Below are positions 18,825 through 63,224 of a DNA stretch of 64,000 nucleotides, one piece after another; the first letter of the stretch is position 1, and each line of letters begins with the position of its first letter. The DNA comes from an uncultured virus (IMG/VR IMGVR_UViG_3300021426_000082). Its lineage: Duplodnaviria; Heunggongvirae; Uroviricota; Caudoviricetes. The position numbers and the translations under genes were made by a program. Under the pieces are notes generated by a model. It was not told where the DNA came from and did no database searches. It saw only the letters and a list, made by a program, of their open reading frames with translations. The DNA lies in the IMG/VR virus record IMGVR_UViG_3300021426_000082. One strand, 5' to 3'.

Positions 18825-19043
18825 ATGCAGACTGTCTTAATATCAGGTGTTGACGGAACTATTGTAAACTTTGAACACGTAACAAGGATTTACAAACAGG
18901 GCGGCTATATACATGCCGAACTCACCACAGGGAAACAGATTCCTTTGTATTTCAACAAGAATTATGATGCGGTAAACAGTTACTTCGACAGCCTTATTGA
19001 CAACATACTTGACATAAGAGTTTTCAGGATGAGAACAGACTAA
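18825..19043 (+). CDS. hypothetical protein
   Basis: GAGGTG RBS; stop overlaps terL start. Confidence 0.55.
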   Translation: MQTVLISGVDGTIVNFEHVTRIYKQGGYIHAELTTGKQIPLYFNKNYDAVNSYFDSLIDNILDIRVFRMRTD

Positions 19044-23613: not shown

Positions 23614-23627
23614 AATCAGTAATAGTT

Positions 23628-23747
23628 CAGTTGACTTGACCGCTGTAAGGTGATGGACATTCCACTCACCGGAGCTTTTCCGGAATTTGGAGTTTTATGG
23701 TTTACCGATTTCAGGAAGGCATCAAGAACGATGCAGAGAAGAACATA
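23628..23747 (+). ncRNA. orphan Cas12f-type tracr scaffold plus one 36-nt repeat and guide
   Basis: CAGTTG-ACTTGA-CCGCTG-TAA-GGTGA..TCACC scaffold as at 58602 and 60214; repeat 23692-23727 resembles 58692-58727. Confidence 0.75.
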
Positions 23748-23900
23748 AAAATTTATTGCCCGCATTGCAGGAAATACGGTCGCGACAAACTACTTTTCCA
23801 AGTCGATAAGACAACGACAGGGAGAGTGATTATAAAATGCCGTGGCTGTCGTAACCTTGTGACAATAGAACTGGTAAAAGGTGAGCCGAAAGAGCCGTGA
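23697..23900 (+). CDS. Com-like zinc-ribbon regulator
   Basis: IYCPHC...KLLF...IIKCRGCR; GGAG RBS; first gene of late region. Confidence 0.65.
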   Translation: MVYRFQEGIKNDAEKNIKIYCPHCRKYGRDKLLFQVDKTTTGRVIIKCRGCRNLVTIELVKGEPKEP

Positions 23901-23916
23901 AAGCGGCTCTTTTTTT
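23883..23916 (+). terminator. terminator with tandem GAGCC motif (copy 1)
   Basis: GAGCCgaaaGAGCCG-TGAAAG-CGGCTC-TTTTTTT. Confidence 0.7.
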
Positions 23917-23977
23917 GGATTTTAAGCAAGAATCTGGAGTTTTGCGAAAACGTGAAGCCATCAAAAGAGAGGGAAAC

Positions 23978-31251: not shown

Positions 31252-34200
31252 ATGCCTACTATTGATCAGTTAGTCATTGAGATAGAAAATAAGGCAAAAG
31301 GCACTTCCAATGGCATAGAGCAACATGTGGCGGCGCTCGAAAAGCTAAACAACGCGCTGAGCGGTGTTGGCAATGTAAAAGAGTATGCCGATGCAATATC
31401 AAAACTTGCCAATGCAACCGGACAGATTGATAAAAAATCTTTCTCGTCTTTCACGGGGAGCCTTAAAAGATTTGCTCAGTCTGCACAGGTGGCTGATGGC
31501 AGGATCACAGAATTAACAAACGCGCTGGCTAATCTTGCTAATGCCACAAAAGGCATGGATGCAAGTGGCTTGTCGTCCGTAGCTGATGCGGTTTCCAAGA
31601 TGGGCGGGATGAACAGCGAAAACGTTGACCGTCTTGCCACAATGATAGAGCAACTGCAACAGAAACTTGACGCGGCGAACGCAGATGGAACAAAGGTTAA
31701 AGTCGATACCGATGAGGCCGAGCAGAAAGTTGACAACCTCAACGAGAAGTTAGACCAGACACCCGAAGAAGTAACCGTTGCAGAAACAACAGAGACACCA
31801 GATGTACAGGGACCTTCAGGCGTAGACGTTACACCCCCTACATCAGCGTGGCAGGGGTTTGGACAGGTACTTGGGAATGTGGCATCTTATCTGCAGATGT
31901 CCATTCCTGGTCCAATCGGCGCGGTTGTAAGCGGACTATCCAGTATAGCAAGAGTAGGCATAGGGGCTTTTACTGGAGTTGCAAGAGGCGCAGGATTAGC
32001 TATAAGCGTATTGGGGAAGGTCGGCAGTAAGGCTATTCAAGCGGGTAGCGCGATACTTTCATTACCCGGACGGATAGGGAGTGCGCTTTCCTCAGCGATA
32101 ACAAAGTTTCCGGTGCTCGGAAATGCCATCCAGGGCATACAAGGTAAACTTAGTTCCGTTGGCCGACTTCTGACATTCATGCTGTTAAGGAAGGCGTTTA
32201 CGGCATTAATCCAGAACGCAAAGCAGGGGCTTGACAATCTGGCCATGTACTCTGATTCGATTGGATCACGGTTTAACCAGAGTATGTCAACATTATCCTC
32301 TGATTTTTCGTGGGCCGGGAACGCACTTGCAACCGCGTTTGAGCCAATACTGAATATCGCTATCCCTATCATAGATGCGCTTATGACACATCTTGTCGCA
32401 GCTATGACGGTGATTGCGAGGTTCTTTGCGGCCCTTGGTGGTTCTGCCACATACACAAAGGCTATCAAGTTAAACAACAACTATGCGAAGTCGTTAGGTA
32501 GCTCGACGGGGGCAGCGAACAAAAACGCAAAGGCTACGCGCGGAACAGGAAAGGCGGCCAAGAAAGCATCTGAGGACCTTAAATCCTACACGACTTCCAT
32601 AGATGAGTTAAATATACTTGAACCCGATAAGTCTGCGTCCACTGGTTCTGGTGGTTCCGGTGGTGGCGGTGGTGGCGGCATCGGCGGAGGTGGCATTGAT
32701 GTCGGCTCCATGTTCGAAACTGTCACATTAGACAGCGAAGCGCAGAATTGGGCAGAGATGTTCAGGAACGCGTGGAAAAATGCTGACTTTACAGAGATAG
32801 GTGCTATTGTAGGCACTAAACTCCGGGATTCGCTCAATAACATAAACTGGACTGACATTCAGAAAACATGCAACAAGATCGCAAAATCCATTGCCACGTT
32901 CATTAACGGATTTGTTGGCGTTGATGGTTTGTGGGAATCTGTAGGCATGACGTTAGCTCAGGGAATGAACACACTTGTCTATATGCTCAATACAGCGGTC
33001 ACTACGCTTAATTGGAAAAGCATAGGTGCGGCCGTTGCAAAGACAATCAAAAGTGCGTTTGTAAACTTTGACTGGTACGCTGCGGCGTTAACATTAGGCA
33101 ATACAATAGGCGGTATCCTCGATGCAATAACAGGATTTATCCAGGAAATAGACTGGAAAAAAGTGCCGAAAGTGCTGTTCGATACTATCATCAAAGTTAT
33201 AAAGGGGTTTGGTGACAGCGGGCTTGTTTCTGCTATTGCGGAATTATTAGGCTCAGCCGTTGGCGCGGTAGTAGGCATGATAGGCGGAATATTCGGAAGT
33301 ATAGGTTCCGCTATTGCTAAGTGGTGGGGAAGCATCACTGATCAGTTGCCGAGCCTTACAGAACTCAACCCGATAGACTGGCTCTACGAAGCGGGCAAAC
33401 TTGTTATAAAAGGTCTGCTAAAGGGTATTGGCGATGCTATTACTGGTATTGCGGGATGGATCAATGACAATATCTTTACCCCGTTTATTGAAGGGTTTAA
33501 GAGCATATTCGGTATCCACAGCCCCTCGACCGTCATGGAAGAGATGGGCGGTTATCTTATCGAAGGACTTTTGAACGGTGTATCACTTGCATGGGATACA
33601 GTAACAGAGTTCTTTAGTGGTGCATTAGAAGGATTAAAAGCCTTCTTTAAAGACCCGATTGGAACCATAAAAGTCACCGTCGAAAAAGGTGTTGACAAGG
33701 CTAAAAAAGTCTGGAACACGTTTAAGAACAGCGAAGCCGTTAAGACGCTGAAAAGCAAAGTCAAAGCAGGATTTAATAAAGCCAAAGAAAAGTGGGATGC
33801 CTTTAAGAACAGTGATGCCGTAAAGAGTGTTAAAGCGAAAGTCGAGGGCGCGTTTAATTCTGCAAAAGAAAAGTGGGACGCTTTCAAGGATAGCGAAGTT
33901 GTCAAGAGTGTTAAGGGCAAAATTGATAGCACATTCACATCTGCCAAAACTGCTTTTGAAAAGATCAAAGACAGCAAAGCGGTCAAGACTATCACGGCTG
34001 TTCTGACAGGGGCTTTCAATACCGCCAAGACAAAGTACGAAGAAATCAAAGATAAGGCAACTAAGTGGGTCGGTAATGGCGGACTGTCTACTGCCTTCAA
34101 TACGGCTTCGAACGCATACAATTCCCTTAAAGATTATGCGCGAACATTCACTGGCAAAGGAAATACGAACAGCACCTTTACCACAGCAAAAAATGCGTTC

Positions 34201-35274
34201 TCCGGTATTGTTGATTATTACAAGACGTTTACCGGAAAAGGCAAAACAGACAGTGGATTCACGACTGCGAAAAAGGTATTCTCCGGAATCGTAGACTATG
34301 CAAAAACGTTTACCGGAAAAGGTAAGACAGACAGCACCTTTACAAGCAACCAGAAAACATTTAAGAGCATAGTAGATTACTTCAAGACGTTTACTGGTAA
34401 AGGTAAGACAGACAATACCTTCACAAGCAACAAAAGCACCTTCAACAGCGTCAGCAATTACTCAAAGATGTTCACTGGTAAAGGTGAGTTAGCGAAAACA
34501 TTTAGTGACAGCAAGAGCACATTTAACGGTGTAACAAACAAGTCGGCAACACTGACGCTGAAGGCATCGGACAAATTCTCCGACACATACAAAAAGTTTA
34601 GCGATAAAGACGGCAAAAAGAAAAGCGCAACGCTGACACTAAAAGCAGTTCTTAGTGGATTTACCGTTAACGTCAAGAAAATCCTTGGATGGGCGCAGGG
34701 TGCGTTCTTTGATAAGGGCAGATGGCGTAGTGTTGCGTTTGCGGCACAAGGCGGTATGTTCAACATGGGACAGCTTTTTGTGGCACGTGAAAAAGGCCCT
34801 GAGCTTGTCGGTACAATCGGCGGACATACAGCGGTCATGAATAATAACCAGATCGTTGGGTCGGTTGCAACCGGTGTCGCGATTGCGGTACAGCGTGCCT
34901 TTTCTAACGTCGCTACGGCTTTATATAACGCTTTTTCGGGAATGAGCCTTATGGTGTCTATGCCGTCTACAAATGCCGGATATTCGGTAAATACGGGGTA
35001 TAACATTGACAGTATCCTCGGAAATGCCGTTACCGCAATAACAGCGGGTATGCTTGAACAGCAGGTACAGCAGACAGCAAACATTAAATATGCGGTCAAA
35101 GAAGCCGTTGCAGAAGTGCTTGACGAAATCGGCATGTACCGTTATCAGCAGAATGTTGATGATGTGATTTCAAGCATTAACGACAAAGAGATGGTCGCCA
35201 ATATCTCAGACAGGGATATAGCAAGAGCCAACAGAACAGGATCAACGAAACTCGGTGTACAAATCATAACCTGA
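31252..35274 (+). CDS. tape measure protein
   Basis: 1340 aa helical, IDELN, FGIHSPS, periodic repeats, AQGG..ARE.GPELVG. Confidence 0.92.
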   Translation: MPTIDQLVIEIENKAKGTSNGIEQHVAALEKLNNALSGVGNVKEYADAISKLANATGQIDKKSFSSFTGSLKRFAQSAQVADGRITELTNALANLANATKGMDASGLSSVADAVSKMGGMNSENVDRLATMIEQLQQKLDAANADGTKVKVDTDEAEQKVDNLNEKLDQTPEEVTVAETTETPDVQGPSGVDVTPPTSAWQGFGQVLGNVASYLQMSIPGPIGAVVSGLSSIARVGIGAFTGVARGAGLAISVLGKVGSKAIQAGSAILSLPGRIGSALSSAITKFPVLGNAIQGIQGKLSSVGRLLTFMLLRKAFTALIQNAKQGLDNLAMYSDSIGSRFNQSMSTLSSDFSWAGNALATAFEPILNIAIPIIDALMTHLVAAMTVIARFFAALGGSATYTKAIKLNNNYAKSLGSSTGAANKNAKATRGTGKAAKKASEDLKSYTTSIDELNILEPDKSASTGSGGSGGGGGGGIGGGGIDVGSMFETVTLDSEAQNWAEMFRNAWKNADFTEIGAIVGTKLRDSLNNINWTDIQKTCNKIAKSIATFINGFVGVDGLWESVGMTLAQGMNTLVYMLNTAVTTLNWKSIGAAVAKTIKSAFVNFDWYAAALTLGNTIGGILDAITGFIQEIDWKKVPKVLFDTIIKVIKGFGDSGLVSAIAELLGSAVGAVVGMIGGIFGSIGSAIAKWWGSITDQLPSLTELNPIDWLYEAGKLVIKGLLKGIGDAITGIAGWINDNIFTPFIEGFKSIFGIHSPSTVMEEMGGYLIEGLLNGVSLAWDTVTEFFSGALEGLKAFFKDPIGTIKVTVEKGVDKAKKVWNTFKNSEAVKTLKSKVKAGFNKAKEKWDAFKNSDAVKSVKAKVEGAFNSAKEKWDAFKDSEVVKSVKGKIDSTFTSAKTAFEKIKDSKAVKTITAVLTGAFNTAKTKYEEIKDKATKWVGNGGLSTAFNTASNAYNSLKDYARTFTGKGNTNSTFTTAKNAFSGIVDYYKTFTGKGKTDSGFTTAKKVFSGIVDYAKTFTGKGKTDSTFTSNQKTFKSIVDYFKTFTGKGKTDNTFTSNKSTFNSVSNYSKMFTGKGELAKTFSDSKSTFNGVTNKSATLTLKASDKFSDTYKKFSDKDGKKKSATLTLKAVLSGFTVNVKKILGWAQGAFFDKGRWRSVAFAAQGGMFNMGQLFVAREKGPELVGTIGGHTAVMNNNQIVGSVATGVAIAVQRAFSNVATALYNAFSGMSLMVSMPSTNAGYSVNTGYNIDSILGNAVTAITAGMLEQQVQQTANIKYAVKEAVAEVLDEIGMYRYQQNVDDVISSINDKEMVANISDRDIARANRTGSTKLGVQIIT

Positions 35275-53630: not shown

Positions 53631-53662
53631 AACAACCTCGGCTACAAACCGAGGTTGTTTTT
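53631..53662. terminator. terminator between lysis genes and repressor
   Basis: AACAACCTCGG-CTACAAA-CCGAGGTTGTT. Confidence 0.75.
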
Positions 53663-54329
53663 AATATAGTTTCCTTCTGATTTCAAATACTTTTCCGACT
53701 ATCTCAATAGGCATCTTCTCTATATCATCAAGGTCGTATGTCATCGGCATATACATAGGGTTAATGCTCTGCAGGTAGATGTGTTTATCGTCGCGCTTTA
53801 TGACCTTGCACGTTGCGTCGTCACCATTCACTCTGACAACGGCTATCTCACCGTCCTCTACGTTTTCCTGGACGCGCACAACAACCATATCCCCGTCCTC
53901 AATTTTCGGGTACATTGAATCACCGCGGATGATCAGACCAAAAAAGTCTCCGCGCCTTTTCAACTCTGACGAGATTTCTGTACTATCAATAATGTTTTCC
54001 TCTGCGAATATAGGCATACCCGCCGCGACCCTTCCGACAACAGGGATTTTAATAAGTCCGTTAACAGCCCTGCTTTCAATTTTGCTTTCATATTGAACAC
54101 GGATGTCGTCGTCAAGCATCTGCAGTAACTCATCAAAGCTCATACCCATTGCTTTTGCGCAACTTTTGATGGTGGTTATGGTGGGTATGATTTCTGTATC
54201 CGTTCCATATCTTTTCCCGCGCCTGAGTGCATAGAGATATGTACGACTTAACCCTGTGCGCTTTTCCATCTCAGCAAGTTTCATATCGTGCTCGTCACAA
54301 TAGTTCACAAGGATTTCACCTAATTTCAT
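53661..54329 (-). CDS. CI-like repressor (HTH plus S24 autopeptidase)
   Basis: N-terminal HTH; VAAG cleavage site, GDSM, ATCK. Confidence 0.92.
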   Translation of the reverse strand: MKLGEILVNYCDEHDMKLAEMEKRTGLSRTYLYALRRGKRYGTDTEIIPTITTIKSCAKAMGMSFDELLQMLDDDIRVQYESKIESRAVNGLIKIPVVGRVAAGMPIFAEENIIDSTEISSELKRRGDFFGLIIRGDSMYPKIEDGDMVVVRVQENVEDGEIAVVRVNGDDATCKVIKRDDKHIYLQSINPMYMPMTYDLDDIEKMPIEIVGKVFEIRRKLY

Positions 54330-55086: not shown

Positions 55087-55986
55087 ATGGCTAACGAATT
55101 AGCAAAAACACAACAGCGCGGTATTTCTGCATACCTTAATAATCCGGAAGTAAAACAGAATGTTATAAGCGTTGTTGGTGATAAGGAATCACAGAAGTTT
55201 ATAAGCTCCATTGTCAGCGCGGTGCAGACCAATCCGGCACTGGCAGAGTGCAGTAATAAAAGCATCCTGTCAGTAGCGTTGCTCGGACATTCCCTTAATC
55301 TGCCACAGTCGCCACAGTTGGGCATCTTTTATTTTGTCCCTTACAACAACTCGAAAAAGATCAAAGACCCGAATACGGGCCGGACAGAAACTATCACGGT
55401 CAAAGAGGCGACGTTCCAGTTATCCTGGAAGGGATATATACAGCTTGCTATGCGGTCCGGTCAGTACAAGCAGATTAACGCCACAGAGGTCAGAGAAGGA
55501 GAGCTTATTTCCTATAATCCTATCACGGAGGAAATTGACCTGCGGGCAATCACTGACTTTAATGACAGAATGAATAGGCCCGTGATTGGCTACTATGCGT
55601 TCTTTACTCTTACAAACGGATTCCGGAAAGAGCTTTACTGGTCCCGTGAACAGATGGAATCACATGCAAGCAGGTACAGCAAGGCTTACAAGAGTGATAA
55701 GAAGTACGGCTCTTCAAGGTCGTTCTGGTCCACTGATTTTGACGCGATGGCCAAAAAGACAATGATCCGTCAGCTTATTTCCAAATGGGGAATTATGTCA
55801 GTCGATATGCAGACCGCCTACGAATCCGACATGGCCATGATTGACGACAATGGAAATCCGGATTATGTAGACAATAAACCGGAGGTCGAAACCGCGACTG
55901 ACGTATACCTGGAAGAACAGCCAGTGGAAACCGAACCCGTTGAAGGTGAGATTTTAGACGACGACGGAAACCCGTTATTCGCATAA
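55087..55986 (+). CDS. recT: RecT-family single-strand annealing protein
   Basis: FYFVPY, FQL.WKGYIQLA.RSGQY, W..DFDAMAKKT. Confidence 0.92.
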   Translation: MANELAKTQQRGISAYLNNPEVKQNVISVVGDKESQKFISSIVSAVQTNPALAECSNKSILSVALLGHSLNLPQSPQLGIFYFVPYNNSKKIKDPNTGRTETITVKEATFQLSWKGYIQLAMRSGQYKQINATEVREGELISYNPITEEIDLRAITDFNDRMNRPVIGYYAFFTLTNGFRKELYWSREQMESHASRYSKAYKSDKKYGSSRSFWSTDFDAMAKKTMIRQLISKWGIMSVDMQTAYESDMAMIDDNGNPDYVDNKPEVETATDVYLEEQPVETEPVEGEILDDDGNPLFA

Positions 55987-55995
55987 GGAGGCACA

Positions 55996-56226
55996 ATGGA
56001 GATTTTGACAACCGTATCGAGGATGATTAAGGATTCCTCAGATATTCCTATCAAACACGGGGACCTGATTGTTTTTGAGACAGCAGACCACCGTTCTGTT
56101 ATTGGAAGATTTGTGGAGATTACGGACCGTGGTTCTTTGAGGTTTGAGAGTACGATCAGTGGCAACGAGTTCTGCGTCATGCCGAAGAGCATCGTTGTCA
56201 GCCATCATATGAAAGAGGACGAATGA
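55996..56226 (+). CDS. hypothetical protein
   Basis: AAGGAGG RBS. Confidence 0.55.
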   Translation: MEILTTVSRMIKDSSDIPIKHGDLIVFETADHRSVIGRFVEITDRGSLRFESTISGNEFCVMPKSIVVSHHMKEDE

Positions 56227-57050
56227 TGGAGTTAACAAACGACAATTATTACTCTATGGAGAGCAATATGTACTACTGCTCAGTCAGTCAGTACAAATCA
56301 TTCATAGGCACACCAAGCAATCCCGCCTGTGAAGCTGCGGCCATGGCAGACCTGAGAGGTGAGATAGAACATAAAGCAGTATCAACTGCATTGTTAGTCG
56401 GTTCTTATGTTGATGCGTATTATTCCGGTGAGTTTGATCAGTTCATTGACGAGCATCCTGAGATATTCAGAATGAACGGGACACTGAAATCAGCGTTCAA
56501 GCAGGCAAATACAATGATTGCCAGAAGTAAAAAAGATGCGCTTTTCCAGAGATATATGGAAGGCGACAAACAGCTTATTCTCACTGGTGACATTGAGGGT
56601 GTCCCGTTCAAAGTCAAGATAGACAGTACGGACCACAAGAGGATTACCGACTTAAAAACGGTCCGGAAAATCTCTGAGACGTTTTTTGTCAAGGATTCCG
56701 GTGAGAGAATCACGTTCATAGAAAAATGGAACTATGACCTGCAGGCCGCTATTTATCAGGAAATATACTTCCAAAACTACGGAAAGAGATTGCCGTTCTA
56801 TATATGCGCAGTCGATAAAAGCCGCAGTTCGATAGATGGTTCTTTCCACCCCAGGATTGCGGTCATACAGATACCGCAGTCAGCTATGGACGACAGGCTT
56901 GCAGAGGTCAGACATAATGTACGTCGCATAGAAATGTTAAAGACCGGAGAGATAGAGCCGATTGCCTGTGGTGTATGTGACTACTGCGCAGACACATTAC
57001 CGCTTACAAGGCCGATCAGCATTGATGAATTGTTAACGGAGGTGCAATGA
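56223..57050 (+). CDS. PD-(D/E)XK exonuclease (DUF3799/RecE-like)
   Basis: LT.DNYYS, SVSQYK, K.KID, DLKT, YDLQAAIYQ, CG.CDYC. Confidence 0.85.
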   Translation: MMELTNDNYYSMESNMYYCSVSQYKSFIGTPSNPACEAAAMADLRGEIEHKAVSTALLVGSYVDAYYSGEFDQFIDEHPEIFRMNGTLKSAFKQANTMIARSKKDALFQRYMEGDKQLILTGDIEGVPFKVKIDSTDHKRITDLKTVRKISETFFVKDSGERITFIEKWNYDLQAAIYQEIYFQNYGKRLPFYICAVDKSRSSIDGSFHPRIAVIQIPQSAMDDRLAEVRHNVRRIEMLKTGEIEPIACGVCDYCADTLPLTRPISIDELLTEVQ

Positions 57051-58591
57051 GACTTGTAAAGATTTCTGCATCATCGGTGCAGATTAAGTCAAACGACAAA
57101 GAGTTTGAGGGATTAAGGATCAATGACCTGATGAGGATTACAGATGGCACAGCAAACCTTGTGGTCATGGTCAGCAACATCACGTCAGCAGATACGGACG
57201 ATGACGAGATGTTTATCAGGGCGACAAAGATGCGCGTTGTAGACTGCGACATCATAGGCTCGATTACGGACGGTCATTTCCATACTGACATTAATACGTA
57301 TCCCACAACCGACGTAAGCATTAGCGGTATCACTCAGGACGAGTTCAGGAACATGCTCATGAAGTTTGAGAACAACGGATTCAAGCTGGGCGTGTATGCC
57401 GACTATGAAGTAGACGCTTATGTAAATGCGAACAAGTTGTTCCAGAGACACGCCTGCCTGCTTGGTAATACGGGTTCCGGTAAATCCGAAACGGTAGCAA
57501 AGATACTGCAGGAGATTTCCAAAAAGCGGTCAACGAATGTCCTGGTATTCGATATTCACGGTGAGTATTCGAACATTAGCTACGTCAAGAGCTATAAGGT
57601 AGGAACGGATGACTGTCCTATTCCCATCTGGATGTTCGGTTTTAATGGTATCGTATCCAATATCCTGCGCATCAAAGAAGAAAGCTCAACAGTGGTCATG
57701 ACTGCACTCAGGAAATGCTATTACCAGGTGTGTCCGGATGGTAAAGAAAACAAACCTATATGGTTCGACTACAAAGCCTTAATCAATGCCATGGTCAACC
57801 TCAACACCGAGGTTATAGGTACGGGCGACTTCTATAAGACAGGCGACAGAGCAGGTCAGGAAAAGACAAAGGCCGGAGAGTTCAACGGAAAGCTCGATAC
57901 AGTGATTGCAAAACTCAAAGACCGCTTAGAGGATTCCCGTTACAGGTTCCTTTTCAACGATCCTGGACAGGGGGCTTTACACACATTGTTCTCTATCCTG
58001 TTTGAAAAAGGTGGCGTAAAGAGTTTTGATTTTTCAGATGTTCCCCATGATGTAGCAGTCCCGATCATCGGAATTATCACAAAACTTGCCTATGACGGTC
58101 AGCGGACACAGAGAGATATTTGCCCCATGGTCATTTTCTGTGACGAGGCACATGTATATATCCCTGCATCCGATCAGTTATCATCCTCACAGCGACGCAT
58201 GACAGAGACGTTTGAAGAGATTGCAAAAGAAGGCCGTAAGTTCGGCGTGACACTTTTCCCGGCAACGCAGCGTCCTTCAGAGCTTAACAGAACAATCCTG
58301 GCTCAGTGCGGTAATTTTATTGTAATGAAACTGAACAACGAGAATGATAAGACCATCGTTAAAGGTATGTTACCCGAAGGTAATGTAGGCATCGTAGAAT
58401 CAACAACAATGTTCAGGCCGGGTGATTGTATCGTCATCGGTGATGCAAGTCCTATCCCTATCAAAGTGCATGTTGACCTCGCAGACGAAAGACCCACAAG
58501 CAGGACTATTGATTTCTGGTCAGAGTGGGATAGGGAAAGAGAACAGGCAGACGTGAATGACATTATAAGCAGCTATTTATCATCGTTTTGA
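57047..58591 (+). CDS. HerA-like ATPase (DUF87, with HAS-barrel-like N-terminus)
   Basis: RHACLLGNTGSGKS, FDIHGEY, CDEAH, IAKEGRKFG, TQRPSEL, QC.N. Confidence 0.85.
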   Translation: MRLVKISASSVQIKSNDKEFEGLRINDLMRITDGTANLVVMVSNITSADTDDDEMFIRATKMRVVDCDIIGSITDGHFHTDINTYPTTDVSISGITQDEFRNMLMKFENNGFKLGVYADYEVDAYVNANKLFQRHACLLGNTGSGKSETVAKILQEISKKRSTNVLVFDIHGEYSNISYVKSYKVGTDDCPIPIWMFGFNGIVSNILRIKEESSTVVMTALRKCYYQVCPDGKENKPIWFDYKALINAMVNLNTEVIGTGDFYKTGDRAGQEKTKAGEFNGKLDTVIAKLKDRLEDSRYRFLFNDPGQGALHTLFSILFEKGGVKSFDFSDVPHDVAVPIIGIITKLAYDGQRTQRDICPMVIFCDEAHVYIPASDQLSSSQRRMTETFEEIAKEGRKFGVTLFPATQRPSELNRTILAQCGNFIVMKLNNENDKTIVKGMLPEGNVGIVESTTMFRPGDCIVIGDASPIPIKVHVDLADERPTSRTIDFWSEWDREREQADVNDIISSYLSSF

Positions 58592-58601
58592 TAGATGTGC
58601 T

Positions 58602-58669
58602 CACCTGACTTGACAGGTGTAAGGTGAGGGAAGATTCCACTCACCAGAGCCTTCCGGAAGGCATCAAGG
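58602..58669 (+). ncRNA. natural single-guide scaffold (tracr fused to repeat half)
   Basis: CACCTG-ACTTGA-CAGGTG, GGTGAG/CTCACC, GCCTT-CCGG-AAGGC, ends ATCAAGG. Confidence 0.75.
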
Positions 58670-58764
58670 ATAACTGTACAGATTCTTTTTTGTTTTATGG
58701 CCTTCTGGTTTCGGTAAGGCATCAAGGAGGAAATAGCAAACTTGCTTTCGGGAAGGCATCAAGA
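58651..58764 (+). CRISPR. degenerate micro-array upstream of Cas12f-like gene
   Basis: three AAGGCATCAAG ends (58668, 58726, 58763); one full 36-nt repeat 58692-58727; spacers of 22 and ~15 nt. Confidence 0.65.
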
Positions 58765-58848
58765 TGGATATGTTTATGTATGGCATGGTTGTCTGATACA
58801 TAAAGGAGAGAGCAGGCACAAAAAAAGCAAAAGAAAAGAAAGGCACCA

Positions 58849-60201
58849 ATGGCAAAAGATAGTTATGTTATGACGCGCAAAATCCAGGTGATTCCGGTAG
58901 GAGATAAGGAGGATATAGACAGGGCATACAAGTACATTCGTGATGCACGATACGTCCAGAACAGAGCGTACAATCTCCTTATCTCAACGGTATATGCGGC
59001 GATCATATCAAGAAAGAGTAACGAAGAAATAAACACGATATACAAAAGGGGTTCCAGAAAGCCAAAAGAAAATGATCCCGAATACAGTCTTTATGACTAT
59101 GACACATATCATTTTCCGGTAGGGCTTCCGATAGCGTCGGGGCTTAGCCAGCGTGTTAAGAGCGATATTAAAAAAGCAAAGCAAAACGGATTGTTTAAGG
59201 GTAATTCGTCCCTGCCTAACAAGAGAAGAACATCGGCGTTAGAGCTGCATCCTGATTATGTTAGGGTGATGGCTGAGAACAAAAGGCCCAATGGGTTGTA
59301 TCACAAGTATGATTCTGATGACGAGTTCTACGAGGCGTTAAGGACTGGAACACCAGAAATATACTGGAAGTTCTGCAACGGAATAGAGTTCAAGATGGTC
59401 ATACGGAACCCAAGGAAAGACGCATGTATCCGGTCAGAACTCGAAAAGATATTCAAAGGCGAGTATGCGATTAACGGGTCGCACATTAACATCTCAGACA
59501 GCGACAACAAGATAATTCTTTTCCTGACATTCACTGTACCTAAATCAGACAGGCAGTTGCTTGAAGATGTGACAGTAGGTGTAGATGTAGGGATGGCGAT
59601 ACCTGCGGTATGTGCGCTTAATAGCAATCCTGGGCCGAGATTATTTACGGGAACATACATCGTAGACGGCAATACTCACAAAGGAACGTCAGAGCTATTA
59701 AGACAGCGGACTTCAATTCAGAATCAGCTTAGAAGGCATCAAAGCGGACTTAAATACAGTAGTGGTGGTCACGGCAGGGCAAAGAAGCTACGGTCGCTTG
59801 AAAAGCTGAAGGACAGGGAAAGGAATTTTGTAAACACCTATAACCACAGGATTTCAAAAGCGGTCGTTGATTTTGCGCTGAAACACAAAGCGAAATATAT
59901 CAACATCGAAGAATTAAAAGGATATGATGCTAATGATTTGATTCTTCGTAACTGGTCATACTACGAACTGCAGAACATGATCACTTACAAGGCAGAGCGT
60001 TACGGAATCACTGTCAGGAAAATAGAACCCGCCTATACTTCTCAGACGTGTTCATGTTGCGGAAACGTCAGCAAAGCACAGAGAAGGAGCCAGAGTGAAT
60101 TTGTCTGCATTAATCCTGATTGCGAGAACTACATGAAAGTGGTCAATGCGGATTACAATGCCGCCAGAAACATCGCAATGTCAACTAAATATGTAAAATA
60201 G
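58849..60201 (+). CDS. cas12f: Cas12f-like (TnpB-superfamily) compact RNA-guided nuclease
   Basis: RuvC D246 (VGVDVG), E354 (INIEEL), D435 (NADYNAARNI); GGHGRAKK, LRNWSYYELQ, YTSQTCSCCG; flanked by tracr-like scaffolds and repeats. Confidence 0.88.
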   Translation: MAKDSYVMTRKIQVIPVGDKEDIDRAYKYIRDARYVQNRAYNLLISTVYAAIISRKSNEEINTIYKRGSRKPKENDPEYSLYDYDTYHFPVGLPIASGLSQRVKSDIKKAKQNGLFKGNSSLPNKRRTSALELHPDYVRVMAENKRPNGLYHKYDSDDEFYEALRTGTPEIYWKFCNGIEFKMVIRNPRKDACIRSELEKIFKGEYAINGSHINISDSDNKIILFLTFTVPKSDRQLLEDVTVGVDVGMAIPAVCALNSNPGPRLFTGTYIVDGNTHKGTSELLRQRTSIQNQLRRHQSGLKYSSGGHGRAKKLRSLEKLKDRERNFVNTYNHRISKAVVDFALKHKAKYINIEELKGYDANDLILRNWSYYELQNMITYKAERYGITVRKIEPAYTSQTCSCCGNVSKAQRRSQSEFVCINPDCENYMKVVNADYNAARNIAMSTKYVK

Positions 60202-60213
60202 TCAGCGATGGCT

Positions 60214-60270
60214 CGGTAGACTTGACTGCCGTAAGGTGAGGTCAAACAGGCACTCACCAGAACCCTTGCA
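60214..60270 (+). ncRNA. tracrRNA-like scaffold with anti-repeat
   Basis: CGGTAG-ACTTGA-CTGCCG, GGTGAG/CTCACC; ACCCTTG complementary to repeat CAAGGGT. Confidence 0.75.
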
Positions 60271-60285
60271 AAGTTAATAATTGGC

Positions 60286-60443
60286 CCTTTGGAGGACTGT
60301 AGAACCACAAGGGTATCAAGGCTACAGTGTTGGACATAGAAAACATTGATGCCTTTGGAGGACTATTAAACCGCAGGGGTGTCAAGGGCAAACTTAGCAA
60401 ATGCTACCCTTTGGAGGACTGTAAAATCACAAGGGTATTAAGG
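60286..60443 (+). CRISPR. mini CRISPR array: three 36-nt repeats, spacers of 30 and 20 nt
   Basis: CCTTTGGAGGACTGTAGAACCACAAGGGTATCAAGG at 60286, variants at 60352 and 60408. Confidence 0.85.
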
Positions 60444-60467
60444 TCAAGGTAGAAAGGACTTAAAAAA

Positions 60468-60848
60468 ATGACCAAAAAGACTTTCGCAGGCACAAAAAAT
60501 GCAGGGGTGTCAAGGAAGGATTCAATCATAGTAGACATGCGCTATGCAAATTATGACCTTATTGACGGTCGGCCTGACGTGCATAGGCATCATGTATTCA
60601 TGGGGGCAAAACAGCGTGATTTAGCCGACGAAGATGGTTTGTGGATACCGCTTTCAGAACAGCACCATGAATACGGTTTAAGACCGGATACAGGCGTTAG
60701 ATGTGACGTGCATCATTGTAAGATATTCAGACAGCTTACTCAGATTATCGGTCAGTTAGCATGGGAACTCGACTATGTTGCCGATGATCAAAAGAAAAAA
60801 GAAGCAAGAGAGGCTTTCCGGAAAAGATACGGTCAGTCTATGCTTTAA
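60468..60848 (+). CDS. HNH-like (Ref-like) phage nuclease
   Basis: HRHHVF.G..R.L..EDGL..PL...HH. Confidence 0.55.
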   Translation: MTKKTFAGTKNAGVSRKDSIIVDMRYANYDLIDGRPDVHRHHVFMGAKQRDLADEDGLWIPLSEQHHEYGLRPDTGVRCDVHHCKIFRQLTQIIGQLAWELDYVADDQKKKEAREAFRKRYGQSML

Positions 60849-60893: not shown

Positions 60894-61367
60894 ATGGCGT
60901 GGGTAAAAGGAATCCCGCCGAAAATGCTGCATGACAAGCTCGGTATTTATCGCGAGGGCGGGTGGCACGCAGAGATGGACCGTTGCTGGGTTGACGGGAC
61001 CTATTGTGTATGCTCACGAATCATTAGAACACAATTCGGCAACGTGGAGCATGTAACGATCACAAAGGGCGGTGGTACGTATGACGGTTCCGGTGAGGTG
61101 ACTTGGGCGGAAAAGATGCGTATTAAGAATGAACTGTTCGGGGAGAACAGATTTGCTATTGAGGTTTTCCCGAAACAGAAGAACCTGGTTGATGTGTGCG
61201 ATGTCTATCACCTTTGGGTATTTGACAAAAAGGTAAATATGCCTTTTGGAATCGGCAAAAAAGAAATGGTCCATGCTATCAACCGCGGTTATAACATAAC
61301 GCCCGCTGAACTGGAAACGTTAAACAGCGCAATTAACAAAGGAGAGACTATTGGAAGTCTGGCGTGA
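60894..61367 (+). CDS. phage hypothetical protein
   Basis: TWAEKMRIKNELFGE...AIEVFP...LVD....HLW. Confidence 0.65.
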   Translation: MAWVKGIPPKMLHDKLGIYREGGWHAEMDRCWVDGTYCVCSRIIRTQFGNVEHVTITKGGGTYDGSGEVTWAEKMRIKNELFGENRFAIEVFPKQKNLVDVCDVYHLWVFDKKVNMPFGIGKKEMVHAINRGYNITPAELETLNSAINKGETIGSLA

Positions 61368-61896
61368 GGTTCCAGGTTATAACGGAAGGTATTTTGCAAG
61401 CAACAAGGGCCGGATTAAAAGCTATACCGGACACATACTTTCGATGATCAAAAGGTGCCGTGGTGAGAATGTAAGATATGTTGTCACGACAACCAAAAGT
61501 GACAACCGCAGGGGGGCGGCGAGTGTAGCCAGAATGGTATGGCTTGCTTTTAATGGTATTCCACCTCCGGGATACATGGTGGTGCATAAGAATGGTTTTC
61601 AACACGACAACAGGCTTTCAAACCTTATGTTGATGCCAAGAAAGTCACCGCCGCTGATACCACCTAACCAGAAACCAGTCATCAAAATATCAAAATCTGG
61701 AGAGATATTAGAGCATTACACATCTGCAAAAGAGGCGGGTGACGCTAACTACTTTGCAGATACGACTATATCAAGGAGGGCGTTAGGGCAGGTCAAATAT
61801 CCTTTGGATGGCGGGATAGACTTTTGCTATGACACGAACGAAAGCTACAAAATGGCCCTTAAAAGGCTGGGACTTAAACCGAAGAACCTGTATTGA
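61351..61896 (+). CDS. NUMOD4-HNH endonuclease
   Basis: EVW..VPGY.GRY..SN.GR, HKNG..DN...NL. Confidence 0.8.
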   Translation: MEVWREVPGYNGRYFASNKGRIKSYTGHILSMIKRCRGENVRYVVTTTKSDNRRGAASVARMVWLAFNGIPPPGYMVVHKNGFQHDNRLSNLMLMPRKSPPLIPPNQKPVIKISKSGEILEHYTSAKEAGDANYFADTTISRRALGQVKYPLDGGIDFCYDTNESYKMALKRLGLKPKNLY

Positions 61897-61920
61897 CGAA
61901 AGGGACAAACGCTTTTGGGA

Positions 61921-62442
61921 ATGAAGGAACAGACACCTGAAATATGGAAGGACATTCCTGGTTATGGTGGTAAATATCAGGCATCTATACATGGCAATAT
62001 CCGAAGGGTATATGAAAGCGGAAAGACAAGGCAATTAACACCTTGGCATCGTAAGATGAGAGGAAGTCCCCGGCTTGTAGTCAAGCTGACCCACGAAGGA
62101 AAGAGCAGGGAGGCCGTGGTCTTAGGTCTTGTGGCCCTGACGTTCATAGGGCCTCGTCCAGAGGGATACGTGCCATATCACATAAACGGTATGCAGAGCG
62201 ATAACAGCGTCAGGAACATTGCGTATATATCCAGAAAAGAACTTGGACGACTGACCGGACCGGGAGCACGCAGAAAGCCAGTGGCTAAGATAGACGCTAC
62301 AGGAAATGTGGTCGAATACTATTCGTCTGCAAGGGAAGCGGGCAGAAAGAATCATATGTCATATCAGGCCATCTTGGACAGGTGCAACGGAAAAATAAAG
62401 AACCCCACGGCTCTTGATGGACATAACTATTTATGGGATTGA
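61921..62442 (+). CDS. NUMOD4-HNH endonuclease
   Basis: EIWKDIPGY.GKY, HING..SDN...N, NUMOD1-like tail. Confidence 0.8.
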   Translation: MKEQTPEIWKDIPGYGGKYQASIHGNIRRVYESGKTRQLTPWHRKMRGSPRLVVKLTHEGKSREAVVLGLVALTFIGPRPEGYVPYHINGMQSDNSVRNIAYISRKELGRLTGPGARRKPVAKIDATGNVVEYYSSAREAGRKNHMSYQAILDRCNGKIKNPTALDGHNYLWD

Positions 62443-62453
62443 AAGGAAAATAC

Positions 62454-63224
62454 ATGGGGATAGAACTTCTATCTGGCGACTGCTTAGAGTTAATGGGCCA
62501 TATCCCTGACAAATCAATAGACATGGTTCTCTGTGATTTGCCCTATGGAATATTAAATAAAAGCAATCCGAAAGCAAAATGGGATTCAGTGATCAGTTTT
62601 GATAAGTTGTGGGAACAGTATAAACGGATAACAAAAGACAATGCTGCAATCGTCCTTTTTGGAAGTGGCATGTTTACCGCAAGACTGATGCAGTCGAATG
62701 AAAAGATGTGGCGATACAACCTCGTGTGGGACAAGGTAATGAAAAGCGGTTTCCTTAATGCGAACCGTATGCCACTTAGACAGAATGAGGACATATGTGT
62801 TTTCTACAAAAGATTGCCGACGTACAATCCGCAGATGGAAAAATGTGCTCCACATAAGCGGAACCACACCAGGGGGAACATGCTCAACCAGACAGAGAAT
62901 AATTGCTACGGTGAGTTTAAGAACGTCCAGACAATCATATCGGATGAGAAGTACCCGACAAGCATAATCTCTATTCCAAAAGAACATTCGGTAGGAAAGT
63001 TTTTCCACCCGGCACAGAAACCCGTTGCCCTATTGGAATACCTTATCAGGACATTCACAAACGATGGTGACACTGTACTTGATAACTGCATGGGTAGCGG
63101 TTCAACAGGGGTTGCTTGCGTCAACACAAACCGGAACTTCATAGGGATTGAGATAGACAGTGATTATTTCAATATAGCGGTAAACAGGATTCACGAAGCA
63201 GAAGAAAGGAAAAAGCATGAGTAA
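62454..63224 (+). CDS. DNA N4/N6 methyltransferase (beta class)
   Basis: GDCLE, CDLPYG, HPAQKPV, LDNCMGSGSTG. Confidence 0.92.
   Translation: MGIELLSGDCLELMGHIPDKSIDMVLCDLPYGILNKSNPKAKWDSVISFDKLWEQYKRITKDNAAIVLFGSGMFTARLMQSNEKMWRYNLVWDKVMKSGFLNANRMPLRQNEDICVFYKRLPTYNPQMEKCAPHKRNHTRGNMLNQTENNCYGEFKNVQTIISDEKYPTSIISIPKEHSVGKFFHPAQKPVALLEYLIRTFTNDGDTVLDNCMGSGSTGVACVNTNRNFIGIEIDSDYFNIAVNRIHEAEERKKHE

What the first reader, a model, noticed from the sequence alone, without database searches (positions are those of the whole stretch)
60214..60443. Downstream tracr plus 3-repeat mini-array with a different repeat family and unequal spacers
Seen: 36-nt repeats at 60286, 60352 and 60408 differ from each other at several positions. 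They share mainly the GG(C/T)ATCAAGG-type end with the upstream repeat type, yet the local anti-repeat has changed in step. Spacers are CTACAGTGTTGGACATAGAAAACATTGATG (30 nt) and GCAAACTTAGCAAATGCTAC (20 nt). The tracr starts 13 nt after the nuclease stop, where TnpB omega-RNAs normally sit. Inference: spacers were gained through host Cas1-Cas2 or by recombination, possibly the neighbouring RecT.
Basis: partly seen in the sequence, partly recalled or inferred. Interest (0 to 1): 0.75.

Follow-up and report, generated by a model that had tools for sequence, protein, structure and literature searches.

The report
Phage Cas12f tracrRNA with mini-array
A rumen phage carries a tiny CRISPR-type nuclease with its own helper RNA and short guide arrays, one of several matched guide cassettes, most likely used against rival mobile DNA.

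Summary
Window 60207-60515 (+) carries a folded scaffold (two hairpins plus an anti-repeat) that starts 13 nt after the stop of a 450-aa nuclease. Four 37-nt repeats follow, not three; the last is degenerate. Spacers are 29/30, 19/20 and 35 nt.

The nuclease (58849-60201) belongs to the Cas12f (type V-F) family: its best solved relatives are CnCas12f1 and RhCas12f, and the RuvC D-E-D residues are intact. The window is a temperate siphovirus-like phage from bovine gut metagenomes and has no cas1, cas2 or cas4.

The scaffold is a conserved RNA: 11 of 15 pairs show compensatory changes across 27 copies. The loop of hairpin 1 (ACTTGA) pairs with the repeat tail (TCAAG) as a pseudoknot. The anti-repeat matches only its own repeats.

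The window holds three such cassettes: upstream, downstream, and an orphan at 23.6 kb. In 95 related loci there are 217 scaffolds, all on the nuclease strand, and most are followed by 1-4 repeats.

Spacers turn over between near-identical phages. No protospacer was found, so the target is unknown. How spacers are gained (host Cas1-Cas2 or RecT) is untested.

Verdict: a real Cas12f guide cassette. The multi-cassette layout is a new variant of a known kind.

The parts
58849..60201 (+). 450-aa Cas12f-family (TnpB-derived) RNA-guided nuclease. RuvC D246, E354 and D435 and the CxxC...C zinc ribbon are present.
   Evidence: Pfam PF07282 at 4.8e-21. PDB phmmer: CnCas12f1 8hr5 at 2.4e-66 and RhCas12f 9nzp at 4.6e-52 over residues 8-449. 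The catalytic columns are invariant in 26 aligned sequences. Translation.
60207..60275 (+). Downstream (D) tracr-like scaffold. Hairpin 1 is 60214-60231 with loop ACTTGA at 60220-60225. Hairpin 2 is 60235-60258. The anti-repeat ACCCTTG is 60262-60268.
   Evidence: CM R1 scores 65.9 bits (this sequence was in the seed). Covariation in 11 of 15 pairs. The fold shows three stems.
60285..60321 (+). D repeat 1 (37 nt). Its 3' part CAAGGGT pairs with the anti-repeat. The tail TCAAG pairs with the hairpin-1 loop.
60322..60350 (+).
   Evidence: No convincing protospacer.
60351..60387 (+). D repeat 2 (81% to repeat 1). Pairing with the anti-repeat is kept through a G-U wobble.
60388..60406 (+). D spacer 2 (19/20 nt)
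   Evidence: The IMG/VR 19-20-mer hits are near chance expectation and lie in unrelated contexts.
60407..60443 (+). D repeat 3 (92% to repeat 1). The tail TTAAG still pairs with the loop through a G-U wobble.
   Evidence: read
60444..60478 (+). D spacer 3 (35 nt). It contains the ATG of the mechanical ORF 60468-60848.
   Evidence: The PHROG match of that ORF starts only at residue 34.
60479..60515 (+). D repeat 4, degenerate (26 of 37 to repeat 2, last 15 nt identical). It is the end of the cassette. A related contig is homologous only from 60515 onwards.
   Evidence: family D2. tables 7 and 8 (X7 record 21).
58595..58669 (+). Upstream (U) scaffold fused to its first repeat, like a single-guide RNA. 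Hairpin 1 is 58602-58619 (loop ACTTGA). The anti-repeat GCCTTCC and repeat GGAAGGC form a hairpin at 58649-58662. The tail ATCAAGG is 58663-58669.
   Evidence: CM 57.9 bits. Fold z-score -2.31.
58670..58764 (+). U mini-array: spacer 58670-58699 (30 nt), repeat 58700-58727 (28 nt), spacer 58728-58743 (16 nt), repeat 58744-58764.
   Evidence: families D3 and D4
58812..58829 (+). GCAGGCACAAAAAAAGCA just before the nuclease start. It matches the middle of D repeat 4 (60486-60503) at 17 of 18 positions. The 14-mer occurs only at these two places in the window.
   Evidence: (family D9)
23621..23728 (+). Orphan (M) cassette 35 kb from the nuclease. It has a scaffold 84% identical to U, the anti-repeat GCTTTTCC, a long loop, the repeat GGAAGGC and the tail ATCAAGA. 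The would-be guide runs into a Com-like zinc-finger ORF (23697-23900) just before the portal gene.
   Evidence: (53.6 bits). Identical M-type sequence appears in contigs of two other runs (table 7: X2 and X8 at 58659).

Best explanation
Window 60207-60515 is a guide-RNA cassette of a phage-encoded, adaptation-less type V-F-like (Cas12f) CRISPR system.

How it most likely works: the cassette is transcribed on the + strand, probably with or just behind the nuclease mRNA. It yields a compact scaffold of two hairpins. The anti-repeat base-pairs with the 3' part of each 37-nt repeat. The hairpin-1 loop (ACTTGA) forms a 5-bp pseudoknot with the repeat tail (TCAAG). The roughly 20 nt that follow each tail act as the guide. 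The 450-aa nuclease binds this RNA and cuts DNA that matches the guide next to a still unknown PAM. By analogy with solved Cas12f complexes it would bind as a dimer.

The same nuclease is served by two more cassettes of a second, largely non-cross-pairing repeat type: U upstream and M as an orphan. The most likely use is interference with competing phages or other mobile DNA in the lysogen or during infection.

What is shown here: the anatomy, the family of the nuclease, conservation and covariation of the RNA, cognate pairing, and variation of the arrays between related phages. What is inferred: transcription, processing, cleavage, and the nature of the targets.
For: Nuclease family: PDB phmmer hits are all Cas12f-type proteins, TnpB or Cas12p. 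The best are CnCas12f1 at 2.4e-66 and RhCas12f at 4.6e-52 over the full length. The structure names were confirmed by passages in PMC13186708. D246, E354 and D435 are invariant in a 26-sequence alignment.

RNA: in 27 scaffolds, 11 of 15 predicted pairs carry compensatory changes. CM R1 finds 217 matches at E <= 0.001 in 95 related loci, all on the nuclease strand.

Pseudoknot: 69 of 138 unique parsed cassettes have a loop/tail complement of at least 5 nt. Shuffling gave 27.5 +/- 3.6 (maximum 38 in 1000 shuffles). Fourteen different complementary tail motifs occur.

Cognate pairing in the window. The substitutions among the D repeats that fall in the paired segments keep pairing through G-U wobble (read).

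Array behaviour in relatives: the period is 63-69 nt in 127 of 143 units. Spacers turn over between loci whose nuclease genes are at least 95% identical (0 of 17 and 0 of 8 shared).

The window's own lineage: contigs from four runs of four other studies keep the nuclease gene. The spacer bin 60325-60401 is uncovered in three of the four runs. Loose ends show different sequence after repeat 1 (X2) and after repeat 2 (X8). The distal part from 60429 onwards is conserved in X2 and X6.

Context: the window is a temperate phage with no cas1, cas2 or cas4. [quoted passage not shown]
Against: There is no evidence of expression: no RNA run holds the locus, and the promoter scans are at chance level.

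No protospacer was found for any window spacer in the window itself, in INPHARED phages, in PLSDB plasmids, in IMG/VR or in JGI metagenomes. None was found for the spacers of two relatives either.

The window's repeats differ from one another (81-92%) and its spacers are irregular (29, 19 and 35 nt; upstream 30 and 16 nt). Relatives are regular, so part of the array may be decaying.

Fold energies of the D and M cassettes are not better than shuffles (z -0.85 and -0.92). The three window scaffolds were in the CM seed, so their scores are not independent.

The scaffold is only about 65 nt. Published Cas12f guide RNAs are longer (129-156 nt for one family, PMC13186708).
Confidence: 0.65

Rival explanations
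1. Decaying relic. The scaffold with the first repeat and guide may still work, but the rest of the downstream array is a degenerating remnant with no function, and the unequal spacers are deletion scars.
For: Repeats are only 81-92% alike. Units measure 66, 56 and 72 nt against a family mode of 66. Repeat 4 is degenerate. No targets were found.
Against: Substitutions in the segments that pair with the anti-repeat and with the pseudoknot loop are all pairing-preserving. The identical array is present in an independent 4.7-kb metagenome contig. The distal part is conserved in two other studies.
Confidence: 0.2
2. Selfish homing or allelic exclusion in the TnpB manner. The last guide of each cassette is simply the flanking phage sequence (after 60515, after 23728, after 58764). 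It directs cleavage of sibling phages that lack the cassette at that site. Repair by the neighbouring RecT and exonuclease then copies the cassette in.
For: The first unit of U and M is a fused scaffold-repeat-guide, like an omega RNA. A related contig (X7) is homologous to the window only from 60515 onwards, exactly at the end of repeat 4, with different sequence before it. Orphan single-guide cassettes far from the nuclease occur in the window and in 1 of 9 related phage records searched whole. RecT and a PDDEXK exonuclease lie 3 kb upstream. TnpB homing is established (Meers et al. 2023, seen only as a reference-list entry in PMC11656645).
Against: Any inserted array must end at a repeat, so the breakpoint is expected anyway. 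There is no TnpA and there are no transposon ends. The element is single-copy in two host genomes. Internal spacers are clearly not flanking sequence. No PAM is known. Only one contig shows the empty allele.
Confidence: 0.12
3. A host-dependent viral mini-array. The repeats copy a host CRISPR system and the phage borrows host Cas proteins, as described for archaeal and bacterial viruses. The neighbouring nuclease is an unrelated TnpB.
For: Viral mini-arrays of 1-2 spacers with host-type repeats are known (PMC11656645, passages). Cas1 is present in 3 of 5 bacterial genomes that carry relatives.
Against: The cassette carries its own anti-repeat and pseudoknot partner, and these co-vary with the repeat across the family. 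Scaffolds always lie beside and on the strand of the nuclease. In Anaerotignum sp. MSJ-24 the 14 copies of the repeat occur only next to the nuclease.
Confidence: 0.03

Closest known systems
Type V-F CRISPR-Cas12f systems (CnCas12f1, RhCas12f, OsCas12f, AsCas12f)
   Same: The effector is homologous over its full length. A tracrRNA is encoded beside the gene. The array lies downstream on the same strand, the guide is 3' of the repeat, and adaptation genes are usually absent (PMC10691335).
   Different: The locus is on a temperate phage. One nuclease has three scaffold copies with two repeat types. The arrays have only 3-4 repeats, which are diverged, and the spacers are unequal. The scaffold is much shorter than published Cas12f guide RNAs. 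Dimer formation and the PAM were not tested.
TnpB with omega (right-end) RNA of IS200/IS605 elements
   Same: The RuvC/zinc-ribbon fold family is the same (PF07282). The RNA starts at or near the gene's 3' end. The first U and M units are one-piece scaffold-plus-guide RNAs whose guide is the flanking DNA.
   Different: No TnpA was found among the window ORFs scanned. No transposon ends were seen, though I ran no dedicated search for them. The element is single-copy in two host genomes. There are several repeat-spacer units with foreign spacers that turn over.
TranC (transposon-CRISPR intermediates; Jin et al. 2025, recalled; described in bioRxiv 10.64898/2026.03.27.714800, passages)
   Same: These are TnpB-sized nucleases with short arrays (medians of 4.5-5 repeats, 32-38-bp repeats) and a split tracr/crRNA. 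They have no associated adaptation genes, and one member lies in a Caudoviricetes genome. The family here likewise contains both fused (omega-like) and split (tracr plus array) forms.
   Different: Clade membership could not be tested because no TranC sequence was at hand. The closest solved relatives here are Cas12f proteins. Several cognate tracr/array cassettes per nuclease are not mentioned in the passages I read.
Virus-borne CRISPR mini-arrays (PMC11656645, passages)
   Same: The arrays are very short, lie in a virus genome and lack adaptation genes. The proposed role is competition between viruses.
   Different: Those arrays use host-type repeats and host Cas proteins. Here the phage brings its own nuclease and its own tracr scaffold.
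Omega-RNA arrays of nuclease-dead Cas12f/TnpB linked to sigma factors (PMC10691335, passages)
   Same: A whole scaffold-plus-guide unit is duplicated so that one protein can address several sites, and the tracr is fused to half a repeat.
   Different: Those proteins have lost RuvC residues and regulate transcription in Bacteroidota. Here the catalytic residues are intact and the cassettes also carry true repeat-spacer arrays.
Cas12 hacker / Cas12p (bioRxiv 10.1101/2025.01.20.633832, passages)
   Same: It is a phage-encoded miniature Cas12 with a tracrRNA. The 3' end of the repeat forms a pseudoknot with the tracrRNA.
   Different: It is a different, larger protein (500-700 aa). It is only a weak PDB hit here (9jfs, 4.1e-09, C-terminal 80 residues only).

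Membership tests
Type V-F CRISPR-Cas (Cas12f) | Effector homologous to Cas12f with the RuvC D-E-D triad and a zinc ribbon | tested here: met
   (8hr5 at 2.4e-66; 9nzp at 4.6e-52 over residues 8-449)
Type V-F CRISPR-Cas (Cas12f) | CRISPR array next to the effector gene | tested here: met
   Four repeats at 60285-60515 and three repeat units at 58649-58764. They are small and diverged.
Type V-F CRISPR-Cas (Cas12f) | tracrRNA with an anti-repeat complementary to the repeat | tested here: met
   Complementarity and covariation were tested by computation only. The RNA itself was not observed.
Type V-F CRISPR-Cas (Cas12f) | RNA-guided, PAM-dependent dsDNA cleavage by an asymmetric homodimer | not testable with these tools
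   No assay was possible and no protospacer was found from which to infer a PAM.
Type V-F CRISPR-Cas (Cas12f) | Adaptation module (cas1, cas2, cas4), present in some V-F1 loci only | tested here: not met
   None among 70 window ORFs scanned with Pfam and 63 with PHROGs. It is not a defining feature for most of the Cas12f branch (PMC10691335).
TnpB / omega-RNA of IS200/IS605 | TnpA or transposon ends, and several copies in a genome | tested here: not met
   No transposase family was hit in the window. One copy each in two host genomes that carry relatives. The window's own host genome is not held.
TnpB / omega-RNA of IS200/IS605 | A single RNA whose 3' guide is the DNA flanking the element | tested here: inconclusive
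   This is true in form for cassette M and for the terminal units. The internal units carry foreign spacers.
TranC | Membership of a published TranC clade, and use of both right-end RNA and tracr/crRNA | not tested
   No TranC sequences were available to me and the Cell paper is not in the library. Fused and split RNA forms coexist in this family.
Virus-borne host-dependent mini-array | Repeats identical to the host's CRISPR repeats | not testable with these tools
   No host genome is held. In a relative, the repeat occurs only beside the nuclease.

The most novel reading that the evidence does not exclude
Phage Cas12f loci are assembled from several self-contained guide cassettes that pair with one another only weakly. 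Each cassette has its own scaffold, anti-repeat, pseudoknot partner and mini-array. Some are orphan single-guide RNA genes tens of kilobases from the nuclease. The cassettes are gained, lost and reshuffled between phages without Cas1-Cas2. Their terminal guides, which read into the neighbouring phage genes, let the phage cut and convert sibling genomes that lack the cassette. This would be RNA-guided homing or allelic exclusion that uses the adjacent RecT and exonuclease.
Probability: 0.15. Interest if true: 0.85.

Novelty: new variant of a known kind. Interest (0 to 1): 0.55.

Why it matters

The wider picture is the interesting part. One miniature nuclease is served by two to seven scaffold copies. 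In these copies the pseudoknot loop, the anti-repeat and the repeat have co-evolved into different pairings. This was seen in 95 related loci from phages and gut bacteria.

If these pairs are truly orthogonal, they are a natural set of compatible guide scaffolds for one very small nuclease, which would help multiplexed editing.

The family also holds fused (omega-like) and split (tracr plus array) guides side by side. That makes it a live sample of the step from transposon RNA to CRISPR array, a step the literature has so far mostly inferred.

It also raises a question: how do arrays turn over so fast in phages that carry no adaptation genes?

Tried and rejected
Rfam: no family explains the region. 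The only match up to E = 1 was SNORD43 at E = 0.27, outside the cassette.

Close relatives of the phage: none in IMG/VR, either with the nuclease as a single query or with the portal protein.

Protospacers for the window's guides:
- No hit within 3 mismatches elsewhere in the window or in the 160 loci, apart from one chance-level 3-mismatch hit shared by three near-identical loci.
- The 20-mer of spacer 1 hits two IMG/VR contigs with the same sequence, but the match stops at 20 nt.
- The 19-mer of spacer 2 hits four IMG/VR contigs, two of them at 20 of 20. One lies in an intergenic palindrome-rich region and one inside a 607-aa ORF, so the contexts are unrelated. By my own rough estimate about 1 hit is expected by chance.
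- The 24-mer of spacer 1 in JGI metagenomes found only an identical copy of the same locus.
- blastn of both arrays against INPHARED phages gave only chance-level hits. Against PLSDB plasmids there were hits only inside the nuclease gene, at E of 0.2 or above.

Protospacers for relatives: two arrays searched against phages gave no match. Two spacers searched in IMG/VR matched only themselves. The 132 family spacers searched against all held loci gave nothing convincing.

Expression: no RNA holder is listed for the locus. Promoter- and terminator-like sites are at shuffle level.

Rejected idea: that the 5' half of each repeat is a copy of the anti-repeat, meaning the array arose by duplicating the scaffold's last hairpin. 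Mean best identity was 0.56 against 0.57 for shuffled controls in 79 unique cassettes.

Rejected idea: that the palindrome TAGCANNTGCTA inside spacer 2 is an operator of this phage. There were 3 matches against 1.6 expected, and none lies in the immunity region.

Origin of the D scaffold: it is not clearly a recent duplicate of U or M (69-71% identity, the same as to foreign scaffolds). U and M are 84% alike. In-situ divergence versus import stays open.

Literature: searches for several natural tracrRNAs per type V nuclease found nothing relevant. These searches cover only the open-access library.

Earlier findings of this scan: nothing for this genome or this sequence.
Full report
**What is at the coordinates.** Three 37-nt direct repeats lie at 60285, 60351 and 60407, with 100, 81 and 92% identity to the first and spacings of 66 and 56 nt. 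The two spacers read exactly as quoted. The structured region in front of the repeats starts 13 nt after the TAG (60199-60201) of a 450-aa ORF (58849-60201).

First, a fourth copy of the repeat's last 20 nt lies at 60496-60515 (family D2). Aligned over 37 nt (60479-60515), it matches repeat 2 at 26 positions, with the last 15 identical. The array therefore has four repeats and three spacers of 29/30, 19/20 and 35 nt. Second, the ATG of the mechanical ORF 60468-60848 sits inside spacer 3. That ORF's only family match (phrog_7566) starts at residue 34, so the gene more likely begins at the Met codon at 60537, behind the array.

**The protein.** Pfam finds only the Cas12f1-like TNB domain (PF07282, 4.8e-21). 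Against solved structures, all 16 hits are Cas12f-type proteins, TnpB or Cas12p. The best are 8hr5 (2.4e-66) and 9nzp (4.6e-52, aligned over residues 8-449). Passages in PMC13186708 name these CnCas12f1 and RhCas12f. The RuvC residues D246, E354 and D435 and the zinc-ribbon cysteines are invariant in a 26-sequence alignment.

The family is large. There are 1530 proteins at E <= 0.001 among 5286 candidates, but apart from an identical cluster the best is 67% identical and the rest are 57% or less. The few names that sources give are 'IS605 OrfB family transposase', 'endonuclease [Caudoviricetes sp.]' and 'transposase [Bacteroidales bacterium]'.

**The surroundings.** PHROG and Pfam scans show a temperate siphovirus-like phage. 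Its genes include:
- a large terminase (19043-21658) and a portal (23897-25555);
- a major head protein and a tape measure (31252-35274);
- tail fibre proteins, a holin and endolysins;
- a CI-like repressor (53661-54329, minus strand) and an integrase fragment (5813-6406, minus strand);
- RecT (55087-55986), a PDDEXK exonuclease (56223-57050) and a HerA-like ATPase (57047-58591) just upstream of the nuclease;
- two HNH endonucleases and a methylase downstream.

No Cas1, Cas2, Cas4 or TnpA was hit. No host genome is held. Public runs that hold the stretch are mostly labelled bovine gut metagenomes: 20 rows from 9 studies, and none is an RNA holder.

**The scaffold is a real, conserved RNA element.** The region after the nuclease and the region after the HerA-like gene align with each other. 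Both fold into the same two hairpins. A motif scan then found a third copy at 23621-23687.

I collected relatives of the nuclease from IMG/VR and from GTDB genomes. In IMG/VR, 223 of 552 candidate stretches were confirmed and 80 kept. In GTDB genomes, 200 of 600 were confirmed and 80 kept. I aligned 27 scaffolds. RNAalifold predicts two hairpins, and 11 of the 15 pairs have compensatory double changes.

A covariance model built from this alignment finds the three window copies, which were in the seed, at 65.9, 57.9 and 53.6 bits. Nothing else in the 64 kb scores better than E = 0.025. In 95 related loci it finds 217 matches at E <= 0.001. Every one is on the strand of the nuclease gene, upstream and/or downstream of it, with one to five copies within the roughly 6 kb held per locus. 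Rfam has no family for it.

**How scaffold and repeat fit together.** After hairpin 2 comes a short anti-repeat. Its reverse complement lies in the 3' part of the following repeats, and 5-7 further bases (the tail) precede the spacer. In the window the tail is (A/T)TCAAG(G) in all three cassettes, and the loop of hairpin 1 is ACTTGA, which is complementary to it.

Across the family the loop and the tail change together. Examples are TTTTG/CAAAA, CTTTG/CAAAG, TTTGG/CCAAA, TTTCG/CGAAA, TTCAG/CTGAA, TTTTA/TAAAA, TTTGA/TCAAA, TGTGA/TCACA and TTTCA/TGAAA. With a crude automatic parse, 69 of 138 unique cassettes have a complement of at least 5 nt. Shuffled tails gave 27.5 +/- 3.6, with a maximum of 38 in 1000 shuffles.

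A pseudoknot between the 3' end of the repeat and the tracrRNA is described as a general feature of Cas12 guide RNAs in the Cas12 hacker preprint (passages). The part that differs between the upstream and downstream repeats is the part that pairs with the anti-repeat.

Duplex energies bear this out:
- D anti-repeat with D repeats: -10.7 to -15.1 kcal/mol. With U/M-type repeats: -5.7 to -7.8.
- U anti-repeat with U/M repeats: -13.5 to -20.1 kcal/mol. With D repeats: -4.3 to -8.9.

The differences among D repeats 1-3 that fall in paired segments keep pairing through G-U wobble (CAAGGG to CAGGGG, and TCAAG to TTAAG). The other differences lie in the 5' and middle part of the repeat.

**Three cassettes in the window.**
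- U (58595-58764): the anti-repeat and the first repeat form one tight hairpin (GCCTTCC/GGAAGGC), so the first unit looks like a natural single-guide or omega-type RNA (fold z -2.31). Two more short hairpin repeats follow, with spacers of 30 and 16 nt.
- D (60207-60515): this is the finding under review. The anti-repeat and repeat 1 are separated by a 16-nt linker.
- M (23621-23728): this cassette is 35 kb away, between a dUTPase gene and the portal gene. It has one repeat unit closed over a long loop. Its would-be guide runs into a Com-like zinc-finger ORF whose ribosome site and ATG lie inside that loop.

U and M scaffolds are 84% alike. D is 69-71% like them and just as close to foreign scaffolds. 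Its repeat resembles that of a rumen Pseudobutyrivibrio locus, L090. Whether D diverged in place or was imported stays open.

**The family context.** Most related phage loci carry proper small CRISPR arrays behind each scaffold. Repeats are about 36 nt, and 127 of 143 units measure 63-69 nt with a mode of 66. Cassettes hold 1-5 repeat tails, and 9 in two cases. By a rough rule, about half of the loci (49 of 91) have cassettes on both sides of the gene. One phage, L079, has one cassette upstream and four different ones in tandem downstream, each with its own loop/tail and anti-repeat/repeat pairing.

Some bacterial loci differ. The Roseburia locus L085 has only the fused single-guide form. Anaerotignum sp. 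MSJ-24 (L082) has a 14-repeat array, and its repeat occurs nowhere else in that genome. The element is single-copy in both genomes.

I searched nine related phage records whole with the model (a tenth was not held). One of them has two further orphan scaffolds 55 kb from the nuclease. By eye, both are fused single-guide units, and the first is followed by a terminator-like hairpin and a T run. The window's orphan cassette is therefore not unique.

**Do the arrays change?** Within groups of IMG/VR loci whose nuclease genes are at least 95% identical over at least 1100 nt, results were as follows:
- one group of 6 loci has 17 distinct internal spacers, none shared;
- a group of 5 has 8, none shared;
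- a group of 15 has 15, of which 9 are shared.

For the window's own lineage I laid contigs of four runs from four other studies. All four hold the nuclease gene, mostly at 90-99% likeness. The bin 60325-60401 (spacer 1 to spacer 2) has no cover in three of the four runs. The bin 58708-58784 has no cover in two runs and little in a third. Loose ends show other sequence directly behind repeat 1 (X2) and behind repeat 2 (X8). X6 has contigs that join the end of the U scaffold to 58803 or 58835, although the tool warns that such joints are weak. From 60429 on (the end of repeat 3, spacer 3 and repeat 4) the sequence is conserved in X2 and X6.

This pattern has a variable tracr-proximal part and a conserved distal part, which is the polarity of a growing CRISPR array. 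It rests on contigs that break at repeats, so it is suggestive only. One X8 contig runs through spacer 1 with two compensating indels, and I cannot tell whether it carries the same spacer. An identical copy of the whole locus sits on a 4.7-kb JGI metagenome contig and may come from the same sample.

**Targets.** I found none. The full list of searches is under Tried and rejected. The only exact hits (a 20-mer of spacer 1, and 19-20-mers of spacer 2, in IMG/VR) are close to what chance gives in a collection of that size by my rough estimate, and they lie in unrelated contexts. The biological role is therefore inferred from the family and from the literature on virus-encoded CRISPR (PMC11656645; bioRxiv 10.64898/2026.03.27.714800). 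The latter reports that a phage-borne TranC array targets phages.

**Comparison with what is known.** The cassette is what one expects beside a Cas12f-type gene. PMC10691335 (passages) states that the greater Cas12f branch is linked to arrays but not to Cas1, Cas2 or Cas4, and that arrays lie downstream of the gene. It also says V-F arrays are short, and it describes omega-RNA arrays and tracr-half-repeat fusions in a nuclease-dead Cas12f offshoot. The TranC work describes TnpB-sized nucleases with 3-20 repeats and a split guide RNA. I saw it only through passages of a later preprint and otherwise recall it.

I did not find one feature in the papers I could search. That feature is one active nuclease with several scaffold copies whose pseudoknot and anti-repeat pairings have diverged together with their own mini-arrays, placed on both sides of the gene and sometimes far from it. 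That search covers open-access text only. The Cell paper on TranC and the Cell paper on virus-encoded CRISPR systems are not in the library, and their supplements may bear on this.

Turnover is real. The strict 66-nt period in relatives argues for a ruler-type integrase acting in trans, and Cas1 exists in 3 of 5 bacterial genomes that carry relatives. The window's own units (66, 56 and 72 nt; upstream 58 and 37 nt) and a 17-nt spacer seen in a related contig do not fit that ruler. They would fit decay or a recombinational route. Nothing here tests RecT.

**Verdict.** The object is a guide cassette of a phage-encoded Cas12f-type system. Its function in interference is likely but not shown, and its targets are unknown. 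The multi-cassette architecture of the family is the part worth following up.

Noticed in passing
window 23621-23900: This is an orphan scaffold-plus-repeat cassette 35 kb from the nuclease. The ribosome site and ATG (23697) of a Com-like zinc-finger ORF lie inside the loop of its anti-repeat/repeat stem, and the would-be guide is codons 11-20 of that ORF. An intrinsic terminator follows at 23888-23913, just before or overlapping the portal gene start. Binding or processing of this RNA could affect expression of the Com-like gene.
   Followed up: partly
window 58812-58829 and 60486-60503: GCAGGCACAAAAAA(A/T)GCA occurs only at these two places in the window. One copy is just before the nuclease start codon and the other is inside degenerate repeat 4. 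The nuclease gene plus the D cassette is therefore bracketed by repeat-4-like sequence, as after a recombination or duplication between repeats.
   Followed up: partly
L174 2500-3420 (viral record G006, 125.5-126.3 kb): Two orphan fused single-guide cassettes lie 55 kb from the Cas12f-like gene of that 175-kb phage. Each is preceded by a duplicated end of the preceding ORF. The first is followed by a terminator-like hairpin and a T run.
   Followed up: partly
L079 3900-5000: Four different tracr/mini-array cassettes stand in tandem behind one nuclease gene, with one more upstream. Each has a different pseudoknot pair (TTTCG/CGAAA, CTTTG/CAAAG, TTTCG/CGAAA, TTTCA/TGAAA).
   Followed up: partly
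window 61351-61896 and 61915-62442: Two adjacent NUMOD4/HNH_3 homing-endonuclease-like genes lie directly downstream of the Cas12f locus. A further HNH gene is at 1225-1908 and methylases are at 3378-3812 and 62433-63224. The region is rich in selfish nucleases.
   Followed up: no
window 57047-58591: A HerA/FtsK-like ATPase (DUF87 plus HerA_C) ends 11 nt before the upstream scaffold. It sits between the RecT/exonuclease pair and the Cas12f locus. Its role is unknown.
   Followed up: no
L166 1440-1580: A 60-kb IMG/VR phage contig has a 20 of 20 match to spacer 2 in an intergenic region. That region holds three copies of a TAGCA-NN-TGCTA palindrome and looks like an operator cluster. The 5' flank is GTTA. 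This could be a true target or chance.
   Followed up: partly
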